From Vibrio cholerae ATCC 14035 (GTDB lineage Bacteria > Pseudomonadota > Gammaproteobacteria > Enterobacterales > Vibrionaceae): 6,131 nucleotides of DNA. The stretch spans positions 1-6,131 of the forward strand of contig NZ_JHXR01000049.1 in assembly GCF_000621645.1 (NCBI RefSeq). Reading direction: 5' to 3'. The position numbers and the translations under genes are program-made. Below the pieces are notes generated by a model, which had not been told where the DNA came from, made no database searches, and saw nothing but the letters and a program-made list of their open reading frames with translations. Numbering within the stretch: the stretch's first letter is position 1; every line of letters starts with the position of its first letter. Positions 1 through 6,131 of this stretch are shown here, piece after piece.

Positions 1-27
1 TTTAAATGATTTTTATAGTTTTGTTCT

Positions 28-279
28 ATGTTCTACGGCATGTCATCGAAGAGCGCGATGGACAAGCATTCTGGCGGTGTAGCAGGTTACCGTGCCGCCG
101 AAGGAAAAACCGTACTATTGCCATACCGTGGCAGCGTACACGGCACCATTCAAGACATCCTCGGCGGTGTGCGCTCAACCTGTACCTACGTAGGCGCGGC
201 GGAGCTTCGAGAGCTGACTAAGCGTACAACTTTTATCCGAGTTCAAGAGCAAGAGAACAACGTCTACGGGCGTGAGTAA
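28..279 (+). pseudogene. guaC: 3'-terminal fragment of GMP reductase gene (guaC), last ~83 codons only
   Basis: The translation [82 protein letters not shown] aligns nearly residue for residue with the C-terminus of E. coli GuaC as I recall it ([28 protein letters not shown]...DILGGLRSACTYVGA...[18 protein letters not shown]). The same frame has stops at 7-9 (tga) and 16-18 (tag). Bases 1-27 are AT-rich and not guaC-like, so the gene is 5'-truncated within the window. The ATG at 28 is probably an internal Met codon, not a real start. Confidence 0.8.
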
Positions 280-602: not shown

Positions 603-1754
603 TTGATAACTTTGACAGTATGGGCTTTCAATTTGTTCTCTCCTTCTAAACCAATAATATTTTCTTTCTTCGCTGGTAGCGGCTTTCTAGACTTAGGTTT
701 TGAAACATCAGGCTTTGATGTTCGTTTTGTCAATGAGTTTCATAAACCATTCCTGGACGCTTACAAATATTCAAGAGAACATATGGGCTTACCTAAGCCG
801 AAATACGGTCATTACTTGGGCAGTATCGATGACTTTGTGACTGGTGAAAAAAAACAATTACTTTATGATCTTGTACAAGAAGCCAAGTCTGAAGCGTTAA
901 CTGGTTTCATCGGCGGTCCTCCTTGTCCTGACTTCTCTGTGGCGGGTAAGAACAAAGGTTCAGATGGTGAGAATGGTATTCTCACTCGTGTCTATATTGA
1001 TGCTATCGTTCAGAATCAACCTGATTTTTTCCTTTTCGAAAATGTTAAAGGCTTGTGGAAGACTGGTAAGCACAGAGCTTTTTATGATGCTATGAAAGCA
1101 CATCTTGAAGATGCAGGTTATGTGCTTACAGACCGATTAACAAATAGTATCGAATTTGGTGTACCGCAAGATCGAGACCGTATTTTGATGTTCGGTATCC
1201 ATAGAAAGCATGTGGGTGATAAGCTTACCAGCATAGAACTTGCCAGAGATTTCGATTGGGAGCGAGAAGTAAAATTTGATAAAACGAAAGTCCTAGATAA
1301 ATCGATTTGGCCTGAACTTGCAACTTACAAAGAGAATTCAATTCGAAAGCTTCCAAAGCATTTAGATAACTATCGTGAGTTGACAGTAGAGCATTGGTTT
1401 CAAAAGAATGATGTGAACCAGCATCTTAATGCTAAGCATCATTTTAGGCCGTATTCGGATAAGTTCAAAACAATCCAAGAAGGTGATGATAAGAAAAAGT
1501 CATTCAAGCGTTTGCATAGATACCGTTTTTCTCCAACTGCTGCTTACGGGAATAATGAAGTGCATTTGCATCCGTACAAACCTCGCAGATTAAGTGCAGC
1601 AGAAGCGCTTGCTATTCAGTCTCTACCGAAAGAGTTCCACTTACCTCCAACTATGACTCTTTCAGATATGTTTAAGACTATAGGAAATGGCGTGCCATTT
1701 CTCGCCTCAAAATGCATTGCTCAGACGATTCATAATTATCTAGAAAGTTTGTAA
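603..1754 (+). CDS. DNA (cytosine-5)-methyltransferase (Dcm/PF00145-type)
   Basis: All canonical C5-MTase motifs are present in order: motif I FSFFAGSGFLDLGFE (from 666); motif IV GGPPCPDFS (912-938, catalytic Cys codon at 924-926); motif VI FLFENVKGL (ENV at 1038-1046); motif VIII FGVPQDRDR (QDRDR from 1167); motif IX RRLSAAEALAIQSLPKEF; motif X TIGNGVPF (GNGVP from 1683). A ~125-aa variable region between motifs VIII and IX is the presumed target-recognition domain. The start is uncertain: an in-frame stop sits at 600-602, and there is no in-frame ATG before motif I. The only candidates are TTG at 603, 612 or 633. Confidence 0.9.
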   Translation: MITLTVWAFNLFSPSKPIIFSFFAGSGFLDLGFETSGFDVRFVNEFHKPFLDAYKYSREHMGLPKPKYGHYLGSIDDFVTGEKKQLLYDLVQEAKSEALTGFIGGPPCPDFSVAGKNKGSDGENGILTRVYIDAIVQNQPDFFLFENVKGLWKTGKHRAFYDAMKAHLEDAGYVLTDRLTNSIEFGVPQDRDRILMFGIHRKHVGDKLTSIELARDFDWEREVKFDKTKVLDKSIWPELATYKENSIRKLPKHLDNYRELTVEHWFQKNDVNQHLNAKHHFRPYSDKFKTIQEGDDKKKSFKRLHRYRFSPTAAYGNNEVHLHPYKPRRLSAAEALAIQSLPKEFHLPPTMTLSDMFKTIGNGVPFLASKCIAQTIHNYLESL

Positions 1755-1780
1755 AAAGGGAGTCATTTGACTCCCTTTTT
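1755..1780 (+). terminator. Strong (bidirectional-looking) rho-independent terminator after the methyltransferase
   Basis: gggagtc (1758-1764) pairs with gactccc (1769-1775) around the loop attt. The stem is flanked by an A-run (1753-1757) and a T5 run (1776-1780), and begins immediately after the taa stop at 1752-1754. Confidence 0.85.
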
Positions 1781-1830
1781 ACATGCTTCACAGCGTAGTC
1801 GCTTGTTTCTCTACACTTCCAATTAAGCCG

Positions 1831-1839
1831 TGCTAATAT
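1831..1839 (+). promoter_or_regulatory. Candidate extended -10 promoter for the three-gene operon
   Basis: tgcTAATAT (TGnTAATAT) lies ~39 nt upstream of the ATG at 1878, downstream of the terminator at 1755-1780. There is no convincing -35 hexamer. Prediction by eye only. Confidence 0.35.
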
Positions 1840-1877
1840 AGCGTTAATAAACAATACTTTGTTAGTCGGCGCATGTT

Positions 1878-3794
1878 ATGAAACTTGAAGAAGTTTTAGG
1901 TTATCTAGAACAGATGGTTGGTTTGAAACTTCAACCCATAAATGAATCAAATGAATCACTTGTTATCCTTGAAGTTGACCGAGAGAACAGCCGTTATACG
2001 GTAGATAAGACCCAAACCACACGAAAACGTACTCGTCCTTTCGTTGAGCTACAAAAGATATTAAGCGCATTAAACCAGAAAGGTTTTACTAGTGTAGATC
2101 AGGCTCTAGGGGGCGCTGGCTCGAGTCGTCATCAGCCAGAAACTATTTTTGCCAACCTCCCATGTATTGAACATTTTAAGTATGAAAAAAAGAAACACCT
2201 TTACTTAAGAGATTCTAATACACATGAGCTTGGAACTATTAAAGAGCTAACAGCATCTGAAACTCGAGAAATTAAGAGAAAAATTGATCGATATCGTGAT
2301 TTCGACGTCTCCCAATTTTATGAACTGCACAGAGAACAAACTATACAACTTAAACACAAACTAGATAGTATTTTTACGAAATATCCTGGTGAGAGTGATG
2401 TAGATGCAGTTAAAGACATTATAGAAAAAATCCAAGAACTAGAAGTTCGACTTTCTGAAGCCATAGTAAGTATTGAGCAAAATGAAGGACAATCCTTTTC
2501 TAAAAGTATTGATGATGATTCGATCCCATTTGGTGGTGAAGAATCAGGTGATGATAACAATGATGAGCGAGAAACGATTGACACTGATGTTACGATCGTA
2601 AAGGGGCTTACCCCAACAAGAATTACCCAAGTTAGTCCTACAGTATCACTTCTATACGACCGTGTTTTACACAATGAAATAGATTTAACACCTGAATATC
2701 AACGCAAAGATCGTATTTGGCCTATAAAAGATAGAGCCCGTCTAATTGAGTCTATTTTGCTTGGTCTACCGTTACCTGTATTCTATTTTGCAGAAAGAGC
2801 TAATAAAGATGCAGAGTCTGAAGTAGATTTTGATTGGGTGGTTATTGACGGCTTACAGCGTACAACTACTTTAGTAGATTTCGTTCAAGGTAAATTTGCT
2901 CTTAAAGATTTAAATCAGTTACCGAAGTATGACAACTGTTATTTCAAAGATTTACCGAGGAAAGAACAACGAAAAATTCGAGAATATCAAATTCATGGTC
3001 ATTTGATTCAAGTATCGAATGATAGCGAAGAAATGATTCGTGAGTTATTTCATCGTATCAATACCTATGGGAAAAACTTGAGTTATCAGGAAATACGTTC
3101 AGCATTGTATCCAGGTTCGACTAATCGATTCTGTAAATATTTCTCTTCTGAAAATATTTTCTTAGATAGTATTCCAGCTAAAGTTAGCGATGAGAGAATG
3201 CTAGATGTTGAGTATGTTTTAAGGGCTGTTGCTTACCTCGTATTAGGATTTGAAAAATATTTTTATAAAACTAATGATGACTTCTTGTGTCATACAATGA
3301 AAGTTCTTAACGCATTTCATTATGATAAAGATAAGGGTGTTTCTTCGTCAGATAGAATATTTCAGATAATTGACTATAAATTAAAAGAGTCACTCAAAAC
3401 GATATCTGTGATATTTGAAGACGATGCATTTAAAAAAGAACCTAAAGGTAAGTTGAATAAGATATTATTTGAGTTGTTAGTTTCTATATTTGCCATGATG
3501 TCTGATGAACAGCGGGAAATAATGGTAATTCCTGAGAATGCGGAACTTTTTAAAAAAACCATGTGGGACGCGATATCTGGTGATGAAAAAACGTCTGATT
3601 GGGAGTCTGAAATATACAAAGAGCTGGGAAGAGGGTTTGATTATTCTATTACAAACTCTACAGGTAAACGAGTGACGGTTCTATACCGATTTAGAAGTTT
3701 GGTTGAATTTATTAATAAAGTGCCTGGCATGATTTTTATGCCGCAAGGAATGTTGGAAAATGAAAATTTAGTCATGGGTAATAAAAATGATTAA
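1878..3794 (+). CDS. DUF262 (ParB-like / GmrSD N-terminal type) domain protein with an unassigned N-terminal module
   Basis: 638-aa ORF. An in-frame stop at 1863-1865 makes ATG 1878 the first possible start. Residues ~255-415 (nt ~2640-3125) carry the DUF262 signature: EYQRKDRIWP (from 2694), LIESILLGLPLPVFYF, DGLQRTTTL (DGLQR at 2847-2861) and LFHRINTYGKNLSYQEIRSAL (from ~3045). Residues 1-~210 match nothing I recognise. Residues ~210-238 (nt ~2505-2590) form an acidic low-complexity linker (SIDDDSIPFGGEESGDDNNDERETIDTD). I saw no DUF1524/HNH-type motif in the C-terminal ~220 aa. Confidence 0.8.
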   Translation: MKLEEVLGYLEQMVGLKLQPINESNESLVILEVDRENSRYTVDKTQTTRKRTRPFVELQKILSALNQKGFTSVDQALGGAGSSRHQPETIFANLPCIEHFKYEKKKHLYLRDSNTHELGTIKELTASETREIKRKIDRYRDFDVSQFYELHREQTIQLKHKLDSIFTKYPGESDVDAVKDIIEKIQELEVRLSEAIVSIEQNEGQSFSKSIDDDSIPFGGEESGDDNNDERETIDTDVTIVKGLTPTRITQVSPTVSLLYDRVLHNEIDLTPEYQRKDRIWPIKDRARLIESILLGLPLPVFYFAERANKDAESEVDFDWVVIDGLQRTTTLVDFVQGKFALKDLNQLPKYDNCYFKDLPRKEQRKIREYQIHGHLIQVSNDSEEMIRELFHRINTYGKNLSYQEIRSALYPGSTNRFCKYFSSENIFLDSIPAKVSDERMLDVEYVLRAVAYLVLGFEKYFYKTNDDFLCHTMKVLNAFHYDKDKGVSSSDRIFQIIDYKLKESLKTISVIFEDDAFKKEPKGKLNKILFELLVSIFAMMSDEQREIMVIPENAELFKKTMWDAISGDEKTSDWESEIYKELGRGFDYSITNSTGKRVTVLYRFRSLVEFINKVPGMIFMPQGMLENENLVMGNKND

Positions 3795-4911
3795 CGAAGT
3801 AACTTTAAGAAATTTTAAATGTTATAAAAACCAATTATTTGAACTTGCTAATTTGACGGTTTTTTGTGGAAATAATTCGTCAGGAAAAAGTACTGTAATT
3901 CAATCCTTATTGCTAATCCTACAAAATAACTTCTCTAATAAATTGGAACTTAGAGGAGATTATGTGCAACCAGGAAGTTATAACGATTTGCACAATAGAA
4001 ATGCTGATGAAGATTCGTTATCAATATTAATCGATACCAGCGTTGGAGCTGTCTCTTGGGGTTATAGTGAAGATGAGTTTTCGAGTCAGAAAAGAAAGGA
4101 AGTCGAAGAGGCTCCACTACCTTTATTAGACTTTTCTGACAAAACTGTTCTACACAAGCTTCGAGAGTTATATGAGGATGAATTTATTTACCTTCATGCA
4201 GAGCGTTGGGGGCCAAGGAGCAGTTATCCATATTCAACTCGAAGACGCTCACAAAACTGGTTAGGAACAAATGGTGAATATGCACCACAAGTTTTAGAAC
4301 TGGTGGTTAAAAATATTCAGACAATGCCCAGTGATGATGTACGTATACACCCTAATCTGACTGATGGCTCTGTAGTCGGTATAGCGCAGAACTTATTTGA
4401 ATGGATGGGGGAAATTTCTCCTGGAGTTTTTATTAAGGCTCAGGCGTTTAAACATGCGGACATTACGACAAATCAATACACTTTTGGTGGTGAGAGCTAC
4501 AGAGCCGTCAATGTTGGTTTTGGTTTAAGCTATGTTCTACCGATCGTCTTGGCACTTTTGGTTACTAAACCTGGTGGACTAGTTATTATTGAAAATCCGG
4601 AAGCCCATCTTCATCCGAGGGGGCAAAGTTATTTGGGCAGGCTAATTGCTCTTGCTGCCGAGGCTGGAGTTCAAGTCGTAGTTGAGACTCATAGTGACCA
4701 CATTATAAATGGTATTCGATTGATGCCAAGGCTAGGAAAGGTTCAAGATAAAAATCTTCTTTTTTATCAGGTTATTAATGAGGATGTAGGTACAACTACA
4801 GTTAAAAAAATAATCGTTAATGCGCAAGGGCAATTTTCAGAATGGCCAGACGGTTTCTTTGACCAGCAAGTATTAGATATGCAAGTGTTAATGACTGGAC
4901 AGGATAAATGA
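3787..4911 (+). CDS. ABC/AAA-type ATPase, DUF3696-like (AAA_15/AAA_21 class)
   Basis: The N-terminus MINEVTLRNFKCYKNQLFEL is typical of SMC/ABC-like ATPases. Walker A is GNNSSGKST (3868-3894, Lys34). Walker B is LVIIENPEAHLHP (4579-4617). The H-loop-like element is ETHSDH (4684-4701). The C-terminal EWPDGFFDQ (WPDGFF at 4843-4860) is what I associate with DUF3696 proteins. ATG 3787 overlaps the upstream stop by 8 nt (ATGATTAA). Confidence 0.8.
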   Translation: MINEVTLRNFKCYKNQLFELANLTVFCGNNSSGKSTVIQSLLLILQNNFSNKLELRGDYVQPGSYNDLHNRNADEDSLSILIDTSVGAVSWGYSEDEFSSQKRKEVEEAPLPLLDFSDKTVLHKLRELYEDEFIYLHAERWGPRSSYPYSTRRRSQNWLGTNGEYAPQVLELVVKNIQTMPSDDVRIHPNLTDGSVVGIAQNLFEWMGEISPGVFIKAQAFKHADITTNQYTFGGESYRAVNVGFGLSYVLPIVLALLVTKPGGLVIIENPEAHLHPRGQSYLGRLIALAAEAGVQVVVETHSDHIINGIRLMPRLGKVQDKNLLFYQVINEDVGTTTVKKIIVNAQGQFSEWPDGFFDQQVLDMQVLMTGQDK

Positions 4912-5786
4912 AAACTATAGTTTCCGTTTCAAATTTCAGTTTAGATTCGTGCAAGTTTAGTAGTTTTATGGAGATAGATACATCGCTTTCCAAGTTAAAA
5001 AATGTCCTATCATTATTTAATCAAGAGAGCGTAGAGTATTACGCAGGTAATGACATTTTAGAGCATAAAGGATTTGGGCTATCGTTTATTGAACAGGCTA
5101 ATAATTTCTCTTATGCTGGTGATAAAGGTGTACAAGCATATCTATATAGTAAGTTATTTCAATCATACTTAAATGGTTTTACTCTTACTTTTTCTACAGA
5201 TGAATTAATGGAGAGAGCAAATAGATTTGTGCTAGAGGAATGCAATGAAAGCTATATCTTATACGCTCCTTGTTTAAATGTTTACAGAGTCAATGTTATT
5301 AATAGTGTTGATGACTTTTATTCTCACTATGAGAATTTATTAAGTAAATACCCAGTCGATGAGCATAGTTATTACAATCGAGCTAAAAGTCATTTTAAAA
5401 AAATCACTTTTCATTCTGATTGTGGTGATACCCTAAAGTGTATCGGTGATGGCGGTATAAAAAACTTTTCAATTGCAATAACGAAGTGCTTAAAAGCCCT
5501 AAATGAATATCAAGCACAAATGAAAATCCCTGAGGATTTAACTATATTAGGTGGTTTGGCTGGGTGTGACTGTACGACACAGGGTAAGAATGGGAAAGAT
5601 GATATGAAGTTTATTTTCCCTGAAATTTCAACAAAAAATGAAGTTAATTGTGAATATCATTTAAAACCTTACAGTAGTAATGATCCAAAAGATAATAAAT
5701 ATTACCAAAAGCGTATTTATTTTACTTTTGCCAATGTTGGTGGGTGTATCAAGACTTTTGTTGCTAGCATTGGACCTCATTTATAA
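4908..5786 (+). CDS. Hypothetical protein (orphan; third gene of the coupled operon), with a C-terminal Cys/His cluster
   Basis: 292-aa ORF. Its ATG overlaps the ATPase stop in ATGA (4908-4911), and AGGA at 4901-4904 can serve as the Shine-Dalgarno. Its AT-rich composition resembles its neighbours. I recognise no family. The C-terminal third contains HSDCGDTLKC (from 5412), GCDC (Cys codons at 5565-5567 and 5571-5573) and NCEYHLKP (Cys codon at 5649-5651). Confidence 0.65.
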   Translation: MKTIVSVSNFSLDSCKFSSFMEIDTSLSKLKNVLSLFNQESVEYYAGNDILEHKGFGLSFIEQANNFSYAGDKGVQAYLYSKLFQSYLNGFTLTFSTDELMERANRFVLEECNESYILYAPCLNVYRVNVINSVDDFYSHYENLLSKYPVDEHSYYNRAKSHFKKITFHSDCGDTLKCIGDGGIKNFSIAITKCLKALNEYQAQMKIPEDLTILGGLAGCDCTTQGKNGKDDMKFIFPEISTKNEVNCEYHLKPYSSNDPKDNKYYQKRIYFTFANVGGCIKTFVASIGPHL

Positions 5787-5796
5787 ATATAAAAAT

Positions 5797-5820
5797 CCGC
5801 CTTCTTAGAAGGCGGTTTTA
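5797..5820 (+). terminator. Rho-independent terminator ending the three-gene operon (bidirectional-looking)
   Basis: ccgccttc (5797-5804) pairs with gaaggcgg (5808-5815) around the loop tta. tttta follows at 5816-5820 and an A-run precedes at 5791-5795. The structure starts 11 nt after the stop at 5784-5786. Confidence 0.8.
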
Positions 5821-5826
5821 ATATAA

Positions 5827-5843
5827 GCCCCCTAAAAGGGGGC
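5827..5843. repeat. Subterminal hairpin, probably the right end of the IS200/IS605-family element (may also terminate tnpA)
   Basis: Perfect inverted repeat gccccc-taaaa-gggggc, 10 nt beyond the tnpA stop codon (5854-5856 on the minus strand). IS200/IS605 elements have subterminal hairpins instead of terminal inverted repeats. Confidence 0.5.
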
Positions 5844-5853
5844 CACGACGCTG

Positions 5854-6131
5854 TTAGTCTCTCAATAACTCTAACTGCTGCTCTTGCTCAAGCTCTTTTT
5901 TGTCTTGATGCCGTACATACCGTCTAATGATTTCTTCATTTACACCTACCGTATCCACAAAATAGCCTCGCGCCCAAAAATGATTTCCCCATAACTTTTT
6001 CCTGATATGTGGAAACTTGTTGAATAGCCTAATTGCACTCCTACCCTTTAAAACTCCCATCAACGTCGAAATCGATACTTTGGGCGGAATTATCGCAACT
6101 AAGTGGACATGATCTGGCTGAACATTGAGTT
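5854..6131 (-). CDS. tnpA: IS200/IS605-family Y1 (HUH) transposase TnpA, C-terminal ~92 codons; the 5' part lies outside the window
   Basis: The minus-strand translation continues beyond the ORF-track start, whose first M is really an internal TTG Leu codon: ...LNVQPDHVHLVAIIPPKVSISTLMGVLKGRSAIRLFNKFPHIRKKLWGNHFWARGYFVDTVGVNEEIIRRYVRHQDKKELEQEQQLELLRD. It contains the HUH motif (HVH) and the W.RGYFVDTVG block that matches E. coli/Salmonella IS200 TnpA (FWCRGYYVDTVGKN). The frame stays open to the window edge. Confidence 0.9.
   Translation of the reverse strand, partial: LNVQPDHVHLVAIIPPKVSISTLMGVLKGRSAIRLFNKFPHIRKKLWGNHFWARGYFVDTVGVNEEIIRRYVRHQDKKELEQEQQLELLRD

What the first reader, a model, noticed from the sequence alone, without database searches (positions are those of the whole stretch)
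603..5786. Candidate composite defence locus: C5-methyltransferase plus a coupled DUF262 / DUF3696-ATPase / orphan operon
**Seen in sequence**
- Four same-strand genes lie in a markedly AT-rich block between a housekeeping gene remnant and an IS element.
- The last three genes are translationally coupled: ATGATTAA overlap at 3787-3794 and ATGA overlap at 4908-4911. This argues for a stoichiometric complex.
- The domain content is a ParB-like DUF262 module, an ABC-type ATPase with the DUF3696 C-terminal WPDGFF signature, and a protein with no recognisable family.

**Established knowledge**
- DUF262 is the NTP-binding/DNA-sensing module of GmrSD/BrxU/SspE-type modification-dependent nucleases.
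- DUF3696 ATPases are frequent DUF262 neighbours in defence islands.

**From memory, unverified**
- I recall the DUF262 + DUF3696-ATPase + small third protein combination as the Pfam content of the Menshen (NsnABC) system from the 2022 Sorek-lab screen.

**Inference**
- This is either a Menshen-like system or a new relative.
- The unusual elements are a neighbouring C5-MTase, a large novel N-terminal module on the DUF262 protein, and an orphan third gene as possible effector.
Basis: partly seen in the sequence, partly recalled or inferred. Interest (0 to 1): 0.8.

Follow-up and report, generated by a model that had tools for sequence, protein, structure and literature searches.

The report
VchM methylase plus Menshen defence island
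This is the known Menshen anti-phage island beside guaC in pandemic Vibrio cholerae, and its neighbouring methylase is VchM, long called an "orphan", which comparative genomics and old published genetics suggest is really Menshen's self-marking partner.

Summary
In detail: four same-strand genes in an AT-rich block between guaC and an IS200-family element, with ATGATTAA and ATGA overlaps joining the last three. It is not a new system. All three downstream proteins hit the PADLOC NsnA, NsnB and NsnC models essentially full length (1e-108, 1e-111, 2e-129). The extra N-terminal module makes it Type II Menshen as defined by Li et al. 2025, and a predicted Menshen island at guaC in every pandemic V. 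cholerae strain is already published.

What seems unrecognised is the methylase link. Published primers match the window exactly, so the methylase is VchM (VCA0198, m5C at RCCGGY) and nsnABC are vca0199-0201. The first ~125 aa of NsnA form a portable reader domain. In 73 dereplicated loci it sits beside a C5-methylase in all but two informative cases, nearly always VchM-family, in three restriction architectures: Menshen, LlaJI/McrB-type, and GHKL-Mrr-helicase-Vsr. Published genetics fit a pathway VchM -| NsnA -> NsnB/NsnC. Loss of vchM, or non-null nsnA point mutations, removes rpoE essentiality only when nsnB/nsnC are intact.

Best reading: a restriction-modification-like Menshen that senses unmethylated RCCGGY DNA and fires an RNase. 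Counter-evidence: Salmonella loci without a methylase, and a terminator between vchM and nsnA.

The parts
1..279 (+). 3' end of guaC (GMP reductase), cut by the window edge. This is the chromosomal insertion hotspot, not part of the system.
   Evidence: NCBIfam GMP reductase NF003470 at 1.7e-41, matching model positions 265-346 of 347. guaC is a full 347 aa in L002. guaC is reported as a defence-island hotspot (PMC12082036).
304..333 (+). Intrinsic terminator of guaC.
   Evidence: Hairpin plus T-run, dG -19.7 kcal/mol, z -5.6.
603..1754 (+). vchM (VCA0198), a C5-cytosine DNA methyltransferase. The literature reports that it methylates the first C of RCCGGY. PC-motif Cys is at aa 108, ENV at 146, QxRxR at 189, the TRD at about aa 200-327, and GNGVP at 361.
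   Evidence: PF00145 at 1e-47, TIGR00675. PADLOC MTase_II at 1e-192. The protein is 100% identical to a V. cholerae protein. Published VCA0198 deletion primers match exactly at 575-601 and 2253-2275. RCCGGY specificity is taken from PMC4654547 and PMC8559950.
1750..1785 (+). Strong intrinsic terminator between vchM and nsnA. It is followed by about 90 nt of putative nsnA promoter/leader.
   Evidence: strand folding gives dG -26.4 kcal/mol, z -8.3, with 0 of 200 shuffles folding as well. The consensus scan missed it because the A/T arms extend the stem.
1878..2243 (+). NsnA N-terminal 'reader' domain (aa 1-122). Its layout is alpha-beta3-alpha3-beta hairpin with a winged-helix-like second half. 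The motif G79-x-G81-S-S-R84-x-x-P87-E-T89, plus K106 and H116, is invariant. It is the proposed sensor of unmethylated RCCGGY.
   Evidence: AlphaFold2 domain model with pLDDT 91. Invariant columns come from A1, A3 and A5. Foldseek gives only weak winged-helix hits. The domain has no Pfam, NCBIfam or PADLOC hit. It occurs in 234 representative clusters and three architectures.
2253..2612 (+). NsnA three-helix bundle (aa 126-194) followed by a disordered acidic linker (aa 198-245).
   Evidence: AlphaFold2: helices 126-141, 144-168 and 173-194; pLDDT below 50 for aa 198-245. The linker is not conserved between cassettes.
2622..3110 (+). NsnA ParB-like DUF262 NTPase domain. Motif I is Q275-R276-x-x-x-x-W281, motif II is D324-G-L-Q-R328, and motif III is F391-x-x-x-N395.
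   Evidence: PF03235 at 3.5e-23. All motif residues are invariant in 56 homologues. The best PDB fold matches of the full-length NsnA model are BrxU at 5e-05 and SspE at 1e-02.
3117..3794 (+). NsnA C-terminal helical domain ('ParBDB' of Li et al.). It holds an invariant S594-T595-G-K597-x-V-T600-x-x-Y-R604-F605 motif. The published rpoE-suppressor mutations S594Y and P616L map here.
   Evidence: The PADLOC NsnA match extends to aa 615. AlphaFold2 shows an all-helical domain over aa 414-637. The suppressor mutations are in PMC2761261.
3787..4911 (+). nsnB (vca0200), an ABC-type ATPase and proposed transducer. Walker A is G28-NNSSG-K34-ST, Walker B is VIIEN (the EN variant), there is a GFG signature and an H-loop THSDH, and the C-terminal DUF3696 helix carries WPDGFF. 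It overlaps nsnA by 8 nt.
   Evidence: PADLOC NsnB at 1e-111, full length. AAA_15, AAA_21 and DUF3696. The motifs agree with the Li et al. description of NsnB. The overlap is shown.
4908..5786 (+). nsnC (vca0201), the proposed effector. The N-terminal half is hypervariable (inPIN-like according to the literature; fold not tested here). The C-terminal ~50 aa are conserved and carry invariant N247, C248, Y250, H251, K253, R269, Y271, F272, A286, G289 and H291, an H-R-H triad as described for the PB-BECR1 RNase. It overlaps nsnB by 4 nt.
   Evidence: PADLOC NsnC PDLC03915 at 2e-129, full length. Alignment A4 of seven cassettes. N-terminal identity is near zero in 4 of 6 cassettes, against 36-64% for the C-terminus. 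The overlap is shown.
5797..5815 (+). Intrinsic terminator closing the nsnABC operon.
   Evidence: 8-bp stem with 6 GC pairs plus a T-run. The folded region gives dG -29.4 kcal/mol.
5828..6131 (-). IS200-family insertion sequence that bounds the island: an end hairpin at 5828-5841 and the C-terminal part of tnpA (stop at 5854, frame open to the window edge). It is not part of the system.
   Evidence: PF01797 Y1_Tnp at 3e-15 and NF033573. The frame is open for 92 codons. The V. cholerae assembly contig ends just after nsnC.

Best explanation
The window is the guaC-adjacent defence island of pandemic Vibrio cholerae chromosome 2. It holds vchM (VCA0198) followed by a Type II Menshen operon, nsnA-nsnB-nsnC (vca0199-0201).

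Proposed mechanism, with each step marked:
1. VchM methylates the first C of RCCGGY on host DNA. This is shown in the literature.
2. The N-terminal ~125-aa winged-helix-like reader of NsnA recognises the same site when it is unmethylated, as on incoming phage or plasmid DNA. This is inferred from gene-neighbourhood evidence.
3. DNA engagement switches the ParB-like DUF262 NTPase and helical ParBDB core of NsnA. This is inferred by analogy with ParB, GmrSD and SspE.
4. That activates the NsnB ABC ATPase, which holds NsnC through its DUF3696 tail. This comes from the AlphaFold 3 models of Li et al. and was not tested here.
5. The C-terminal BECR-like RNase of NsnC (H251/R269/H291) is released or activated, and RNA cleavage stops the infection. 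This is inferred.

The four genes would therefore work as a restriction-modification-like unit. Its 'restriction' arm is a sensor-ATPase-RNase cascade instead of a DNA endonuclease. VchM would not be an orphan.
For: Identity
- Full-length PADLOC hits to NsnA, NsnB and NsnC.
- DUF262 motifs I-III, the NsnB EN-type Walker B with DUF3696, and the NsnC H-R-H triad are all present and conserved.
- The NsnA model matches BrxU and SspE folds.
- Published VCA0198 primers match the window exactly.

Coupling of methylase and Menshen
- In all 8 species contexts sampled where the methylase homologue is at least 66% identical, it is followed by long-NsnA, NsnB and NsnC. This holds despite unrelated flanks: prophage tail modules, integrase/CI satellites, an ICE-like region, and a site next to gyrB.
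- The methylase is the most conserved gene of the cassette, at 66-87% identity.
- At 62% identity the same methylase family pairs with a Cfr10I/Bse634I (RCCGGY-type) endonuclease instead.

- In 104 loci, dereplicated to 73 clusters, it is accompanied by a VchM-family methylase in three architectures.
- Architecture (a): NsnA fusion.
- Architecture (b): fusion to a McrB-like AAA_5 ATPase plus an RE_LlaJI nuclease, with the methylase 0-16 bp upstream.
- Architecture (c): a free-standing 238-aa protein in the operon methylase, GHKL ATPase, Mrr-nuclease/helicase, reader, Vsr.
- Seven further clusters carry a different C5-methylase. In the one locus annotated in detail (L070) it is paired with a Cfr10I/Bse634I endonuclease.
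- Only 2 informative clusters lack any methylase.
- Reader and methylase co-diverge: Mantel r 0.55, with 0 of 2000 permutations reaching it.
- The methylase TRD aligns end to end at 42-54% identity across architectures.

Published genetics, reinterpreted
- Deleting vchM makes rpoE dispensable, but insertions in vca0200 and vca0201 are not tolerated in the vchM rpoE double mutant; read ratios are 0.08 and 0.05 (PMC4654547).
- The non-null vca0199 point mutations S594Y and P616L give the same suppression, 'only in the presence of Vca0200' (PMC2761261).
- S594 is invariant in 56 of 56 homologues.
- vca0199 and vca0200 are co-transcribed.

Allele swapping
- A second V. cholerae allele at guaC keeps a 97%-identical methylase while its NsnA is only 39% identical.
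Against: - A strong terminator separates vchM from nsnA, so they are not one transcript.
- Salmonella enterica loci carry reader-NsnA, NsnB and NsnC with no C5-methylase within 6 kb upstream or 4.3 kb downstream.
- One metagenomic NsnA locus also lacks a methylase in 7 kb upstream.
- The vchM deletion is viable with only a moderate growth defect. Chao et al.'s list of insertions enriched in the vchM mutant does not include vca0199-0201. So strong autoimmunity is not evident.
- No binding, methylation-sensitivity or phage data exist for this system.
- The RNase assignment of NsnC rests on motifs, PADLOC and the literature. A profile search of PDB sequences found nothing, and no structure was predicted.
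- Co-divergence of adjacent genes is expected from linkage alone.
- The experimentally validated S. silvestris Menshen is Type I; the literature read here does not describe a methylase as part of it.
Confidence: 0.6

Rival explanations
1. Independent neighbours. NsnABC is an ordinary Menshen system whose sensing has nothing to do with methylation. VchM is a separate orphan or regulatory methylase, or the survivor of a Type II R-M system that lost its Bse634I-like endonuclease. The two merely travel together on small mobile islands.
For: - vchM has its own terminator and is a separate transcription unit.
- Salmonella loci carry the same long NsnA without a methylase.
- The vchM deletion is viable, and nsnABC insertions are not reported as enriched in it.
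- VchM has documented direct effects on gene expression through intragenic RCCGGY sites.
- Li et al. note that methylases near Menshen often have their own nucleases nearby.
Against: - The reader domain, not Menshen as such, tracks the methylase family through three unrelated restriction engines, at fixed operon positions.
- The methylase-NsnABC adjacency is kept in at least 8 unrelated genomic contexts.
- Published epistasis links vchM, vca0199, vca0200 and vca0201 in a single phenotype.
Confidence: 0.2
2. Reverse polarity. The reader binds methylated RCCGGY. Either methylated host DNA sequesters NsnA and keeps it off, so the system fires when methylation fails (for example when a phage depletes SAM or floods the cell with unmodified DNA), or the system is Type IV-like and targets foreign m5C DNA of another pattern.
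For: - Characterised DUF262 relatives (GmrSD, BrxU, SspE) are modification-dependent.
- The nuclease-helicase partner of the free-standing reader best matches a PADLOC 'Type IV methyl-directed' model.
- The published genetics (loss of methylation leads to NsnB/C-dependent effects) fit 'methylated DNA inhibits' as well as 'unmethylated DNA activates'.
Against: - A reader that activates on the product of its own co-encoded methylase would be self-destructive.
- The LlaJI-type and Cfr10I/Bse634I-type partners seen here are classical systems that attack unmodified DNA (established knowledge of LlaJI and Cfr10I/Bse634I).
- The sequestration version needs an extra assumption and has no precedent that I know of.
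Confidence: 0.12
3. Addiction module. The main role of the four genes is to stabilise the island by post-segregational killing: loss of the cassette dilutes methylation and triggers NsnC. Anti-phage defence would be secondary or absent in V. cholerae.
For: - The cassette is carried by prophages, satellites and ICE-like elements.
- The methylase stays nearly identical while the NsnABC arm is exchanged at the same site.
- The vchM deletion has a fitness cost that depends on catalytic activity.
Against: - This is a consequence of the R-M-like logic rather than an alternative mechanism.
- Menshen has validated anti-phage activity in another species (Li et al., citing the original screen).
- The vchM deletion is readily obtained.
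Confidence: 0.05

Closest known systems
Menshen (NsnABC), Type II as defined by Li et al. 2025 (NAR, PMC12065111). The founding example is the Type I system of Solibacillus silvestris StLB046.
   Same: The three-gene A-B-C order is the same. NsnA has ParB-DUF262 with motifs QRxxxW, DGxQR and FxxxN plus a helical ParBDB domain. NsnB is an ABC ATPase with an EN-type Walker B and a DUF3696 tail. NsnC has a variable N-terminus and a BECR-type H-R-H C-terminus. All three give full-length PADLOC hits. The extra N-terminal sensor on NsnA defines Type II.
   Different: Nothing structural departs from the published family definition. Three points may go beyond the published description. The neighbouring solitary methylase is consistently the same family. 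The NsnA sensor domain is shared with two bona fide restriction architectures that use that methylase. Published genetics exist for this locus. Its pattern of conserved effector and variable inPIN resembles their 'PS-wHTH5-PB-BECR1' loci.
Cfr10I/Bse634I-type Type II restriction-modification systems (RCCGGY).
   Same: The methylase family is the same: a 62%-identical homologue in Shewanella sits in a C-protein, methylase, Bse634I-endonuclease unit. VchM's reported target is RCCGGY. The proposed self/non-self logic is the same.
   Different: There is no endonuclease of that family in the window. The restriction arm is replaced by NsnABC, with a predicted RNase rather than a DNase output.
LlaJI-type R-M systems (C5-methylase, McrB-like GTPase with an N-terminal DNA reader, and an RE_LlaJI nuclease).
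   Same: The N-terminal reader domain and the methylase family are the same, and the methylase lies immediately upstream. The principle is the same: a sequence reader drives an NTPase-coupled effector, and methylation protects self DNA (established knowledge for LlaJI).
   Different: The engine differs: a ParB-like NTPase, an ABC ATPase and NsnC, instead of an AAA+ GTPase and a PD-(D/E)xK nuclease. Canonical LlaJI uses a B3-type reader and a different site (my recollection, not tested).
GmrSD / BrxU / SspE (DUF262-DUF1524 modification-dependent nucleases).
   Same: The DUF262 NTPase plus the following helical DNA-binding domain are shared. The best PDB fold matches are BrxU at 5e-05 and SspE at 1e-02.
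   Different: There is no DUF1524/HNH nuclease domain in NsnA. The effector is a separate protein reached through an ABC ATPase. The proposed trigger is unmodified rather than modified DNA.
PARIS (AriAB), Septu (PtuAB) and Gabija (GajAB): ABC-ATPase-controlled effector systems.
   Same: NsnB gives secondary PADLOC hits to AriA, GajA and PtuA. Li et al. model an NsnB4-NsnC2 assembly analogous to these systems.
   Different: These systems have no DUF262 sensor protein and no associated methylase.

Membership tests
Menshen (NsnABC) | NsnA carries a ParB-like DUF262 domain with motifs I (QRxxxW), II (DGxQR) and III (FxxxN). | tested here: met
   PF03235 at 3.5e-23. The PADLOC NsnA hit is 1e-108. 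Q275/R276/W281, D324-R328 and F391/N395 are invariant in 56 homologues.
Menshen (NsnABC) | NsnA has a C-terminal helical ParBDB domain following DUF262. | tested here: met
   The PADLOC NsnA model is covered to position 382 of 385. AlphaFold2 shows an all-helical region over aa 414-637 with pLDDT of about 90. The model matches the BrxU and SspE folds.
Menshen (NsnABC) | NsnB is an ABC ATPase (Walker A GxxxxGKS, EN-type Walker B, GxG, H-loop) with a C-terminal DUF3696 helix. | tested here: met
   PADLOC NsnB at 1e-111, 1-343 of 345. AAA_15, AAA_21 and PF12476. The sequence shows G28...K34-S-T, VIIEN, GFG, THSDH and WPDGFF.
Menshen (NsnABC) | NsnC is a third gene immediately downstream, with a polymorphic N-terminal (inPIN-like) domain and a C-terminal effector domain. 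| tested here: met
   PADLOC NsnC PDLC03915 at 2e-129, 1-301 of 301. The N-terminus is hypervariable and the C-terminus conserved, with an invariant H251/R269/H291 triad.
Menshen (NsnABC) | The NsnC N-terminal domain adopts an inactive PIN-like fold and the C-terminal domain a BECR RNase fold. | not tested
A sequence profile of NsnC against PDB chains gave no hit at E <= 10.
Menshen (NsnABC) | The three genes are in the order A-B-C on one strand as one operon. | tested here: met
   8-nt and 4-nt overlaps. The order is conserved in every related locus examined. Northern data show co-transcription of vca0199 and vca0200.
Menshen (NsnABC) | The system protects against phage. | not testable with these tools
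   Only the S. silvestris Type I system is cited as validated. I found no phage data for the V. cholerae locus.
Type II Menshen (Li et al. 2025) | NsnA carries an additional globular domain N-terminal to DUF262. | tested here: met
   aa 1-122 form an alpha/beta domain with pLDDT 91, and aa 126-194 form a helical bundle. The PADLOC NsnA model aligns only from aa 202.
Classical Type II R-M (Cfr10I/Bse634I type) | A C5-methylase is paired with a cognate endonuclease (PF07832 or equivalent). | tested here: not met
   The methylase is present. No endonuclease-family ORF is in the window. The endonuclease is present next to the 62%-identical homologue in Shewanella.
GmrSD/BrxU/SspE Type IV restriction enzymes | DUF262 is fused to a DUF1524/HNH-type nuclease domain in one polypeptide. 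| tested here: not met
   Only GmrSD_N was detected in NsnA, with no DUF1524 or HNH hit.
LlaJI/McrBC-type restriction | An AAA_5 (McrB-like) GTPase and an RE_LlaJI/McrC nuclease are present. | tested here: not met
   Both are absent from the window. They occur only in other loci that share the reader domain.
Druantia type II (DruM) | A DruM methylase is accompanied by DruE/F/G. | tested here: not met
   The methylase hits a DruM2 model at 9e-134, but no other Druantia protein matches. The hit reflects general C5-methylase family similarity.

The most novel reading that the evidence does not exclude
VchM, studied for about twenty years as the 'orphan' m5C methylase of V. cholerae, is the self-marking arm of the adjacent Menshen system. 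The N-terminal domain of NsnA is a portable reader of unmethylated RCCGGY that evolution has plugged into three different restriction engines: Menshen, LlaJI/McrB-type, and GHKL-Mrr-helicase. Part of the pleiotropic vchM-deletion phenotype (growth defect, loss of rpoE essentiality, perhaps aminoglycoside tolerance) would then be low-level Menshen auto-activation through NsnB and NsnC. That would make this the first Menshen with a defined trigger, and an R-M-like system whose output is an RNase.
Probability: 0.5. Interest if true: 0.8.

Novelty: new variant of a known kind. Interest (0 to 1): 0.6.

Why it matters
The three-gene system itself is ordinary: a textbook Type II Menshen, already annotated at this locus. 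Three things would matter if the methylase link holds.

1. **A trigger for Menshen.** Menshen has no known trigger. A methylase-gated version with a separable ~125-aa reader domain and a known site (RCCGGY) makes sensing testable with simple binding and transformation assays.

2. **A rethink of VchM.** VchM is a standard example of an orphan regulatory methylase. If its loss activates an RNase-based defence system, the published transcriptomic, envelope-stress and antibiotic-tolerance phenotypes need re-reading. The widely used vchM::spec strain also over-expresses vca0199-0201 four- to six-fold.

3. **Ready-made mutants.** Existing nsnA alleles (S594Y, P616L) that behave as non-null mutations would be the first candidate activating mutations in a Menshen sensor.

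More broadly, one reader-plus-methylase pair serving three different effector engines would be a clean example of modular exchange of the 'restriction' arm in R-M-like immunity.

Tried and rejected
- **E. coli genomes.** A megablast of the whole window found no match.
- **Species-representative genomes.** The scan with NsnA gave only one relative, Pseudoalteromonas fuliginea. The V. cholerae representative evidently lacks this allele.
- **Word-index search with the NsnA N-terminus alone.** It found only 5 proteins and wrongly suggested rarity. The exhaustive search corrected this to 234 clusters.
- **NsnC.** No Pfam or NCBIfam hit, and no PDB sequence hit with a 7-sequence profile at E <= 10.
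- **Site depletion.** The test is underpowered in 6 kb: 0 RCCGGY against about 1.8 expected. CCGG occurs once against 6.4 +/- 2.4 in shuffles, which is suggestive only.
- **Rfam.** No RNA family was found in the window.
- **Terminator scan.** The consensus scan missed the guaC and vchM terminators. Direct folding found them.
- **vca0199-0201 induction as methylation-dependent regulation.** Rejected. The window has no RCCGGY site, and the in-frame deletion of Chao et al. does not list these genes as differentially expressed. Read-through from the aadA7 cassette is the likelier cause.
- **Strong Menshen autoimmunity as the cause of the vchM growth defect.** Not supported as stated, because vca0199-0201 insertions are not among those enriched in the vchM mutant.
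- **My first reading of Chao Table 2.** I first read it as synthetic sickness with the vchM deletion. That was wrong. The ratio compares the vchM rpoE double mutant with the vchM single mutant.
- **Druantia membership.** Suggested by the DruM2 hit and rejected, because no other Druantia component is present.

Full report
**1. Observation**

The window holds four + strand ORFs at exactly the stated coordinates: 603-1754, 1878-3794, 3787-4911 and 4908-5786. GC is 0.29-0.43 across them and 0.48-0.50 over the first 450 bases.

The junction overlaps ATGATTAA (3787-3794) and ATGA (4908-4911) are present. Upstream lies the last 83 codons of guaC (NCBIfam GMP reductase, 1.7e-41). Downstream, on the minus strand, lies the C-terminal part of an IS200-family transposase. 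Its frame stays open to the window edge.

Pfam confirms the domain calls:
- PF00145 for gene 1.
- DUF262/GmrSD_N for aa 266-411 of gene 2.
- AAA_15, AAA_21 and DUF3696 for gene 3.
- Nothing for gene 4.

Two refinements matter. guaC is not a remnant; it is simply cut by the window, and it is intact in the source contig. A very stable hairpin plus T-run (dG -26.4 kcal/mol, z -8.3) sits between gene 1 and gene 2. So the methylase is its own transcription unit, and only genes 2-4 form the coupled operon.

**2. What it is**

PADLOC models settle the identity:

| Gene | PADLOC model | E-value | Coverage |
|---|---|---|---|
| 2 | NsnA | 1e-108 | aa 202-615 to model 27-382 of 385 |
| 3 | NsnB | 1e-111 | 1-343 of 345 |
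| 4 | NsnC | 2e-129 | 1-301 of 301 |

- 23% of NsnA proteins carry extra N-terminal sensor domains, which defines Type II Menshen.
- NsnC is extremely polymorphic, with an inactive-PIN-like N-terminus and, most often, a BECR RNase C-terminus bearing an H-R-H triad.
- 27.9% of Menshen operons neighbour R-M systems or methylases. [quoted passage not shown]

The sequence features agree with that description:
- NsnA has QRxxxW, DGxQR and FxxxN, all invariant in 56 homologues.
- NsnB has Walker A K34, an EN-type Walker B, GFG, an H-loop and WPDGFF.
- NsnC has invariant H251, R269 and H291 inside a conserved C-terminal block, while its N-terminal 200 aa are unalignable in 4 of 6 related cassettes.

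An AlphaFold2 model of NsnA (pLDDT 80) shows five parts: an N-terminal alpha/beta domain (aa 1-122), a three-helix bundle (126-194), a disordered acidic linker (198-245), DUF262, and a helical C-terminal domain. Its best solved-structure matches are BrxU (5e-05) and SspE.

**3. Source and prior knowledge of the locus**

The methylase and NsnA are 100% identical to Vibrio cholerae proteins. The same guaC-methylase-NsnABC arrangement is found in a V. cholerae assembly, where the contig ends right after nsnC.

The primers that Carvalho et al. used to delete VCA0198 (vchM) match the window exactly. One abuts the start codon (575-601) and one lies 500 bp past the stop (2253-2275). The methylase is therefore VchM, described as an orphan m5C enzyme that methylates the first C of RCCGGY. 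nsnA, nsnB and nsnC are vca0199, vca0200 ('putative ATPase') and vca0201.

[quoted passage not shown] A 2026 preprint lists Menshen in the O1 'pandemic core'. Neither mentions VchM. No paper in the searchable library contains both 'VchM' and 'Menshen'.

**4. The methylase travels with this Menshen subtype**

I started from the methylase. Homologues at 66-87% identity are each followed by a 629-656-aa NsnA, then NsnB, then NsnC. This holds in V. metoecus, V. alginolyticus, V. harveyi, Providencia, Undibacterium and Pseudoalteromonas fuliginea.

Their flanks are unrelated:
- integrase plus a CI/HNH satellite-like element at guaC;
- the end of a prophage tail module;
- an anti-restriction/ICE-like region;
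- a site next to gyrB;
- a site between a flavoprotein gene and a sugar epimerase gene.

Within the cassette the methylase is the most conserved gene:

| Component | Identity to window (%) |
|---|---|
| Methylase | 66-87 |
| DUF262 | 50-70 |
| NsnB | 41-52 |
| Reader | 36-55 |
| NsnC C-terminus | 36-64 |
| NsnC N-terminus | about 0 in four of six |

Rahnella and a second, divergent V. cholerae allele at the same guaC site also keep the methylase directly upstream. In that second allele the methylase is 97% identical to VchM while NsnA is only 39% identical. The downstream arm has been exchanged behind a fixed methylase.

At 62% identity the methylase family appears in a classical unit in Shewanella: controller protein, methylase, Cfr10I/Bse634I-family endonuclease. 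That fits VchM's RCCGGY specificity.

**5. The N-terminal module of NsnA is a portable reader tied to that methylase**

An exhaustive profile search found the module in 234 representative clusters. Most are free-standing proteins of about 238 aa, and some are fusions to AAA_5 (McrB-type) ATPases.

I fetched 91 further loci from metagenomes and viral contigs and analysed them with my own HMMs. Three architectures emerged:
- **(a) NsnA fusion plus NsnB and NsnC.** The methylase is about 110-125 bp upstream. In a few loci it is convergent downstream.
- **(b) Methylase, then reader::McrB-like ATPase, then RE_LlaJI nuclease.** The methylase is 0-16 bp upstream. This is a LlaJI-type R-M system.
- **(c) Methylase, GHKL ATPase with zinc ribbons, Mrr-nuclease/SF2-helicase, reader, Vsr.** All genes overlap, and the methylase sits a constant ~4.25 kb upstream. 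Vsr repairs m5C deamination and so signals an active C5-methylase.

After dereplication to 73 clusters the counts are:

| Architecture | VchM-family methylase | Other C5-methylase | Flank too short | None despite enough flank |
|---|---|---|---|---|
| NsnA fusion | 19 | 1 (truncated at a contig edge) | 1 | 1 |
| Free-standing | 21 | 7 | 18 | 0 |
| Other fusions | 4 | 0 | 0 | 1 |

For the seven 'other' methylases, the one locus annotated in detail (L070) pairs the methylase with a Cfr10I/Bse634I endonuclease.

Further support:
- Reader and methylase identities are correlated: Mantel r 0.55, with 0 of 2000 permutations reaching it, and the correlation also holds within architectures.
- The methylase target-recognition region aligns end to end at 42-54% identity across architectures and with the Bse634I-paired enzyme.

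**6. Published genetics fit the pathway**

Davis and Waldor (2009) isolated rpoE-suppressor mutations in vca0199 (S594Y, and later P616L). [quoted passage not shown] They also showed that vca0199 and vca0200 are co-transcribed. They described S594 as poorly conserved, but it is invariant in all 56 long-NsnA homologues, within an S-T-G-K-x-V-T-x-x-Y-R-F motif.

Chao et al. (2015) found that deleting vchM, or inactivating its catalytic cysteine, slows growth and makes rpoE dispensable. They also found that transposon insertions in vca0200 and vca0201 are tolerated in the vchM mutant but not in the vchM rpoE double mutant (ratios 0.08 and 0.05). They noted only that these are hypothetical genes downstream of vchM.

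Both data sets are what one expects if unmethylated DNA, or an activating NsnA mutation, turns on NsnB and NsnC, and their activity changes physiology enough to bypass sigma-E.

Two cautions apply:
- Insertions in vca0199-0201 are not listed among those enriched in the vchM mutant. Menshen therefore does not obviously account for the growth defect.
- The 4-6-fold induction of vca0199-0201 in the vchM::spec strain is absent from the differentially expressed list for the in-frame deletion. Cassette read-through past the deleted gene is the likely cause.

**7. Counter-evidence and rivals**

Salmonella enterica carries reader-NsnA, NsnB and NsnC next to an integrase with no C5-methylase in the fetched flanks. 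Either a methylase acts in trans, or the system is inactive, or coupling is not obligatory.

The terminator between vchM and nsnA, the viability of the vchM mutant, and the lack of any biochemical data keep the 'independent neighbours' reading alive, at about 0.2.

It sits poorly with the LlaJI- and Bse634I-type partners, so I put it at about 0.12.

**8. Verdict**

The system is known, and so is its presence at this site. The claims of a novel N-terminal module and an orphan third gene do not stand.

What the evidence adds is a specific, testable link between two literatures that have not been joined: VchM as the modification arm of a Type II Menshen whose NsnA reader is shared with two other restriction engines. 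I rate the identification as near certain, the methylation-gated mechanism at about 0.6, and overall interest at 0.6.

Noticed in passing
L111-L113 (other V. cholerae strains, guaC site); compare window 603-3794: A second allele of the cassette occupies the same guaC site. Its methylase is 97% identical to VchM in both core and TRD, but its NsnA is only 39% identical, and NsnB and NsnC also differ. Methylase C-terminal identity drops to 86%, so the recombination breakpoint seems to lie near the 3' end of vchM. The 'restriction' arm has been swapped behind a fixed methylase.
   Followed up: partly
L107 and L108 (Salmonella enterica): Reader-NsnA (635 aa), NsnB and NsnC lie next to an integrase and a TraI_2 relaxase. 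No C5-methylase is found within 6 kb upstream or 4.3 kb downstream.
   Followed up: partly
L082 1592-8158; also L049, L079, L104 and more than 20 other metagenome loci: An apparently uncharacterised five-gene operon with overlapping genes: VchM-family methylase, GHKL ATPase with zinc ribbons (845 aa), Mrr-nuclease plus SF2 helicase (577 aa), free-standing reader (238 aa), and Vsr. It is common in gut and rumen metagenomes and occurs on viral contigs.
   Followed up: partly
L028 5422-9526; L043 532-4676; L061 3244-6932: The same reader domain is fused to a McrB-like AAA_5 ATPase and followed by an RE_LlaJI nuclease, with the VchM-family methylase 0-16 bp upstream. This is a LlaJI-type R-M variant. 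One version is 857 aa with an extra middle region.
   Followed up: partly
L070 7712-9794 (minus strand); similar methylase placement in L035, L039, L048, L055, L067, L077: In L070 the GHKL-Mrr-helicase-reader operon has no VchM-family methylase. Instead it abuts a convergent Cfr10I/Bse634I endonuclease plus a different C5-methylase. The other six loci show the same methylase placement, but their neighbouring gene was not annotated.
   Followed up: partly
L097 3662-5600 (viral contig): NsnA is split into a 135-aa reader ORF and a 466-aa DUF262 core ORF. This is either a frameshifted pseudogene or a naturally split sensor.
   Followed up: no
window 4597-4600, and the whole window: The window has only one CCGG, against 6.4 +/- 2.4 in dinucleotide-preserving shuffles, and no RCCGGY site at all. 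The island may avoid its own target, but 6 kb is too little sequence to say.
   Followed up: partly
window 603-1754; supplementary tables of PMC8559950 and PMC4654547: The vchM::spec strain used for the aminoglycoside-tolerance work over-expresses vca0199-0201 by 4-6-fold. The in-frame deletion of Chao et al. does not list these genes as changed. Read-through from the resistance cassette into the Menshen operon is a possible confound for that strain's phenotypes.
   Followed up: partly
window 603-640: The longest vchM ORF starts at TTG 603, which puts the catalytic PC-motif cysteine at residue 108. The literature calls it C109. Homologues align only from about residue 11-17, and in-frame TTGs at 612 and 633 are alternative starts. 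The true start is uncertain.
   Followed up: no
L003 13307-14956; L008 12207-13562; L111 9962-11216: In several vibrios the cassette is followed on the opposite strand by an HNH endonuclease (ScoMcrA_N-like) and a CI-type repressor, and preceded by an integrase. The four genes appear to ride on a small prophage- or satellite-like element. In the window these parts are missing and an IS200-family element follows instead.
   Followed up: no
L013 9122-11202 (Shewanella): Directly after the Bse634I-type R-M unit come a 348-aa protein with no family hit and a 344-aa DUF262 protein. This is another DUF262 system sitting next to the same methylase family.
   Followed up: no
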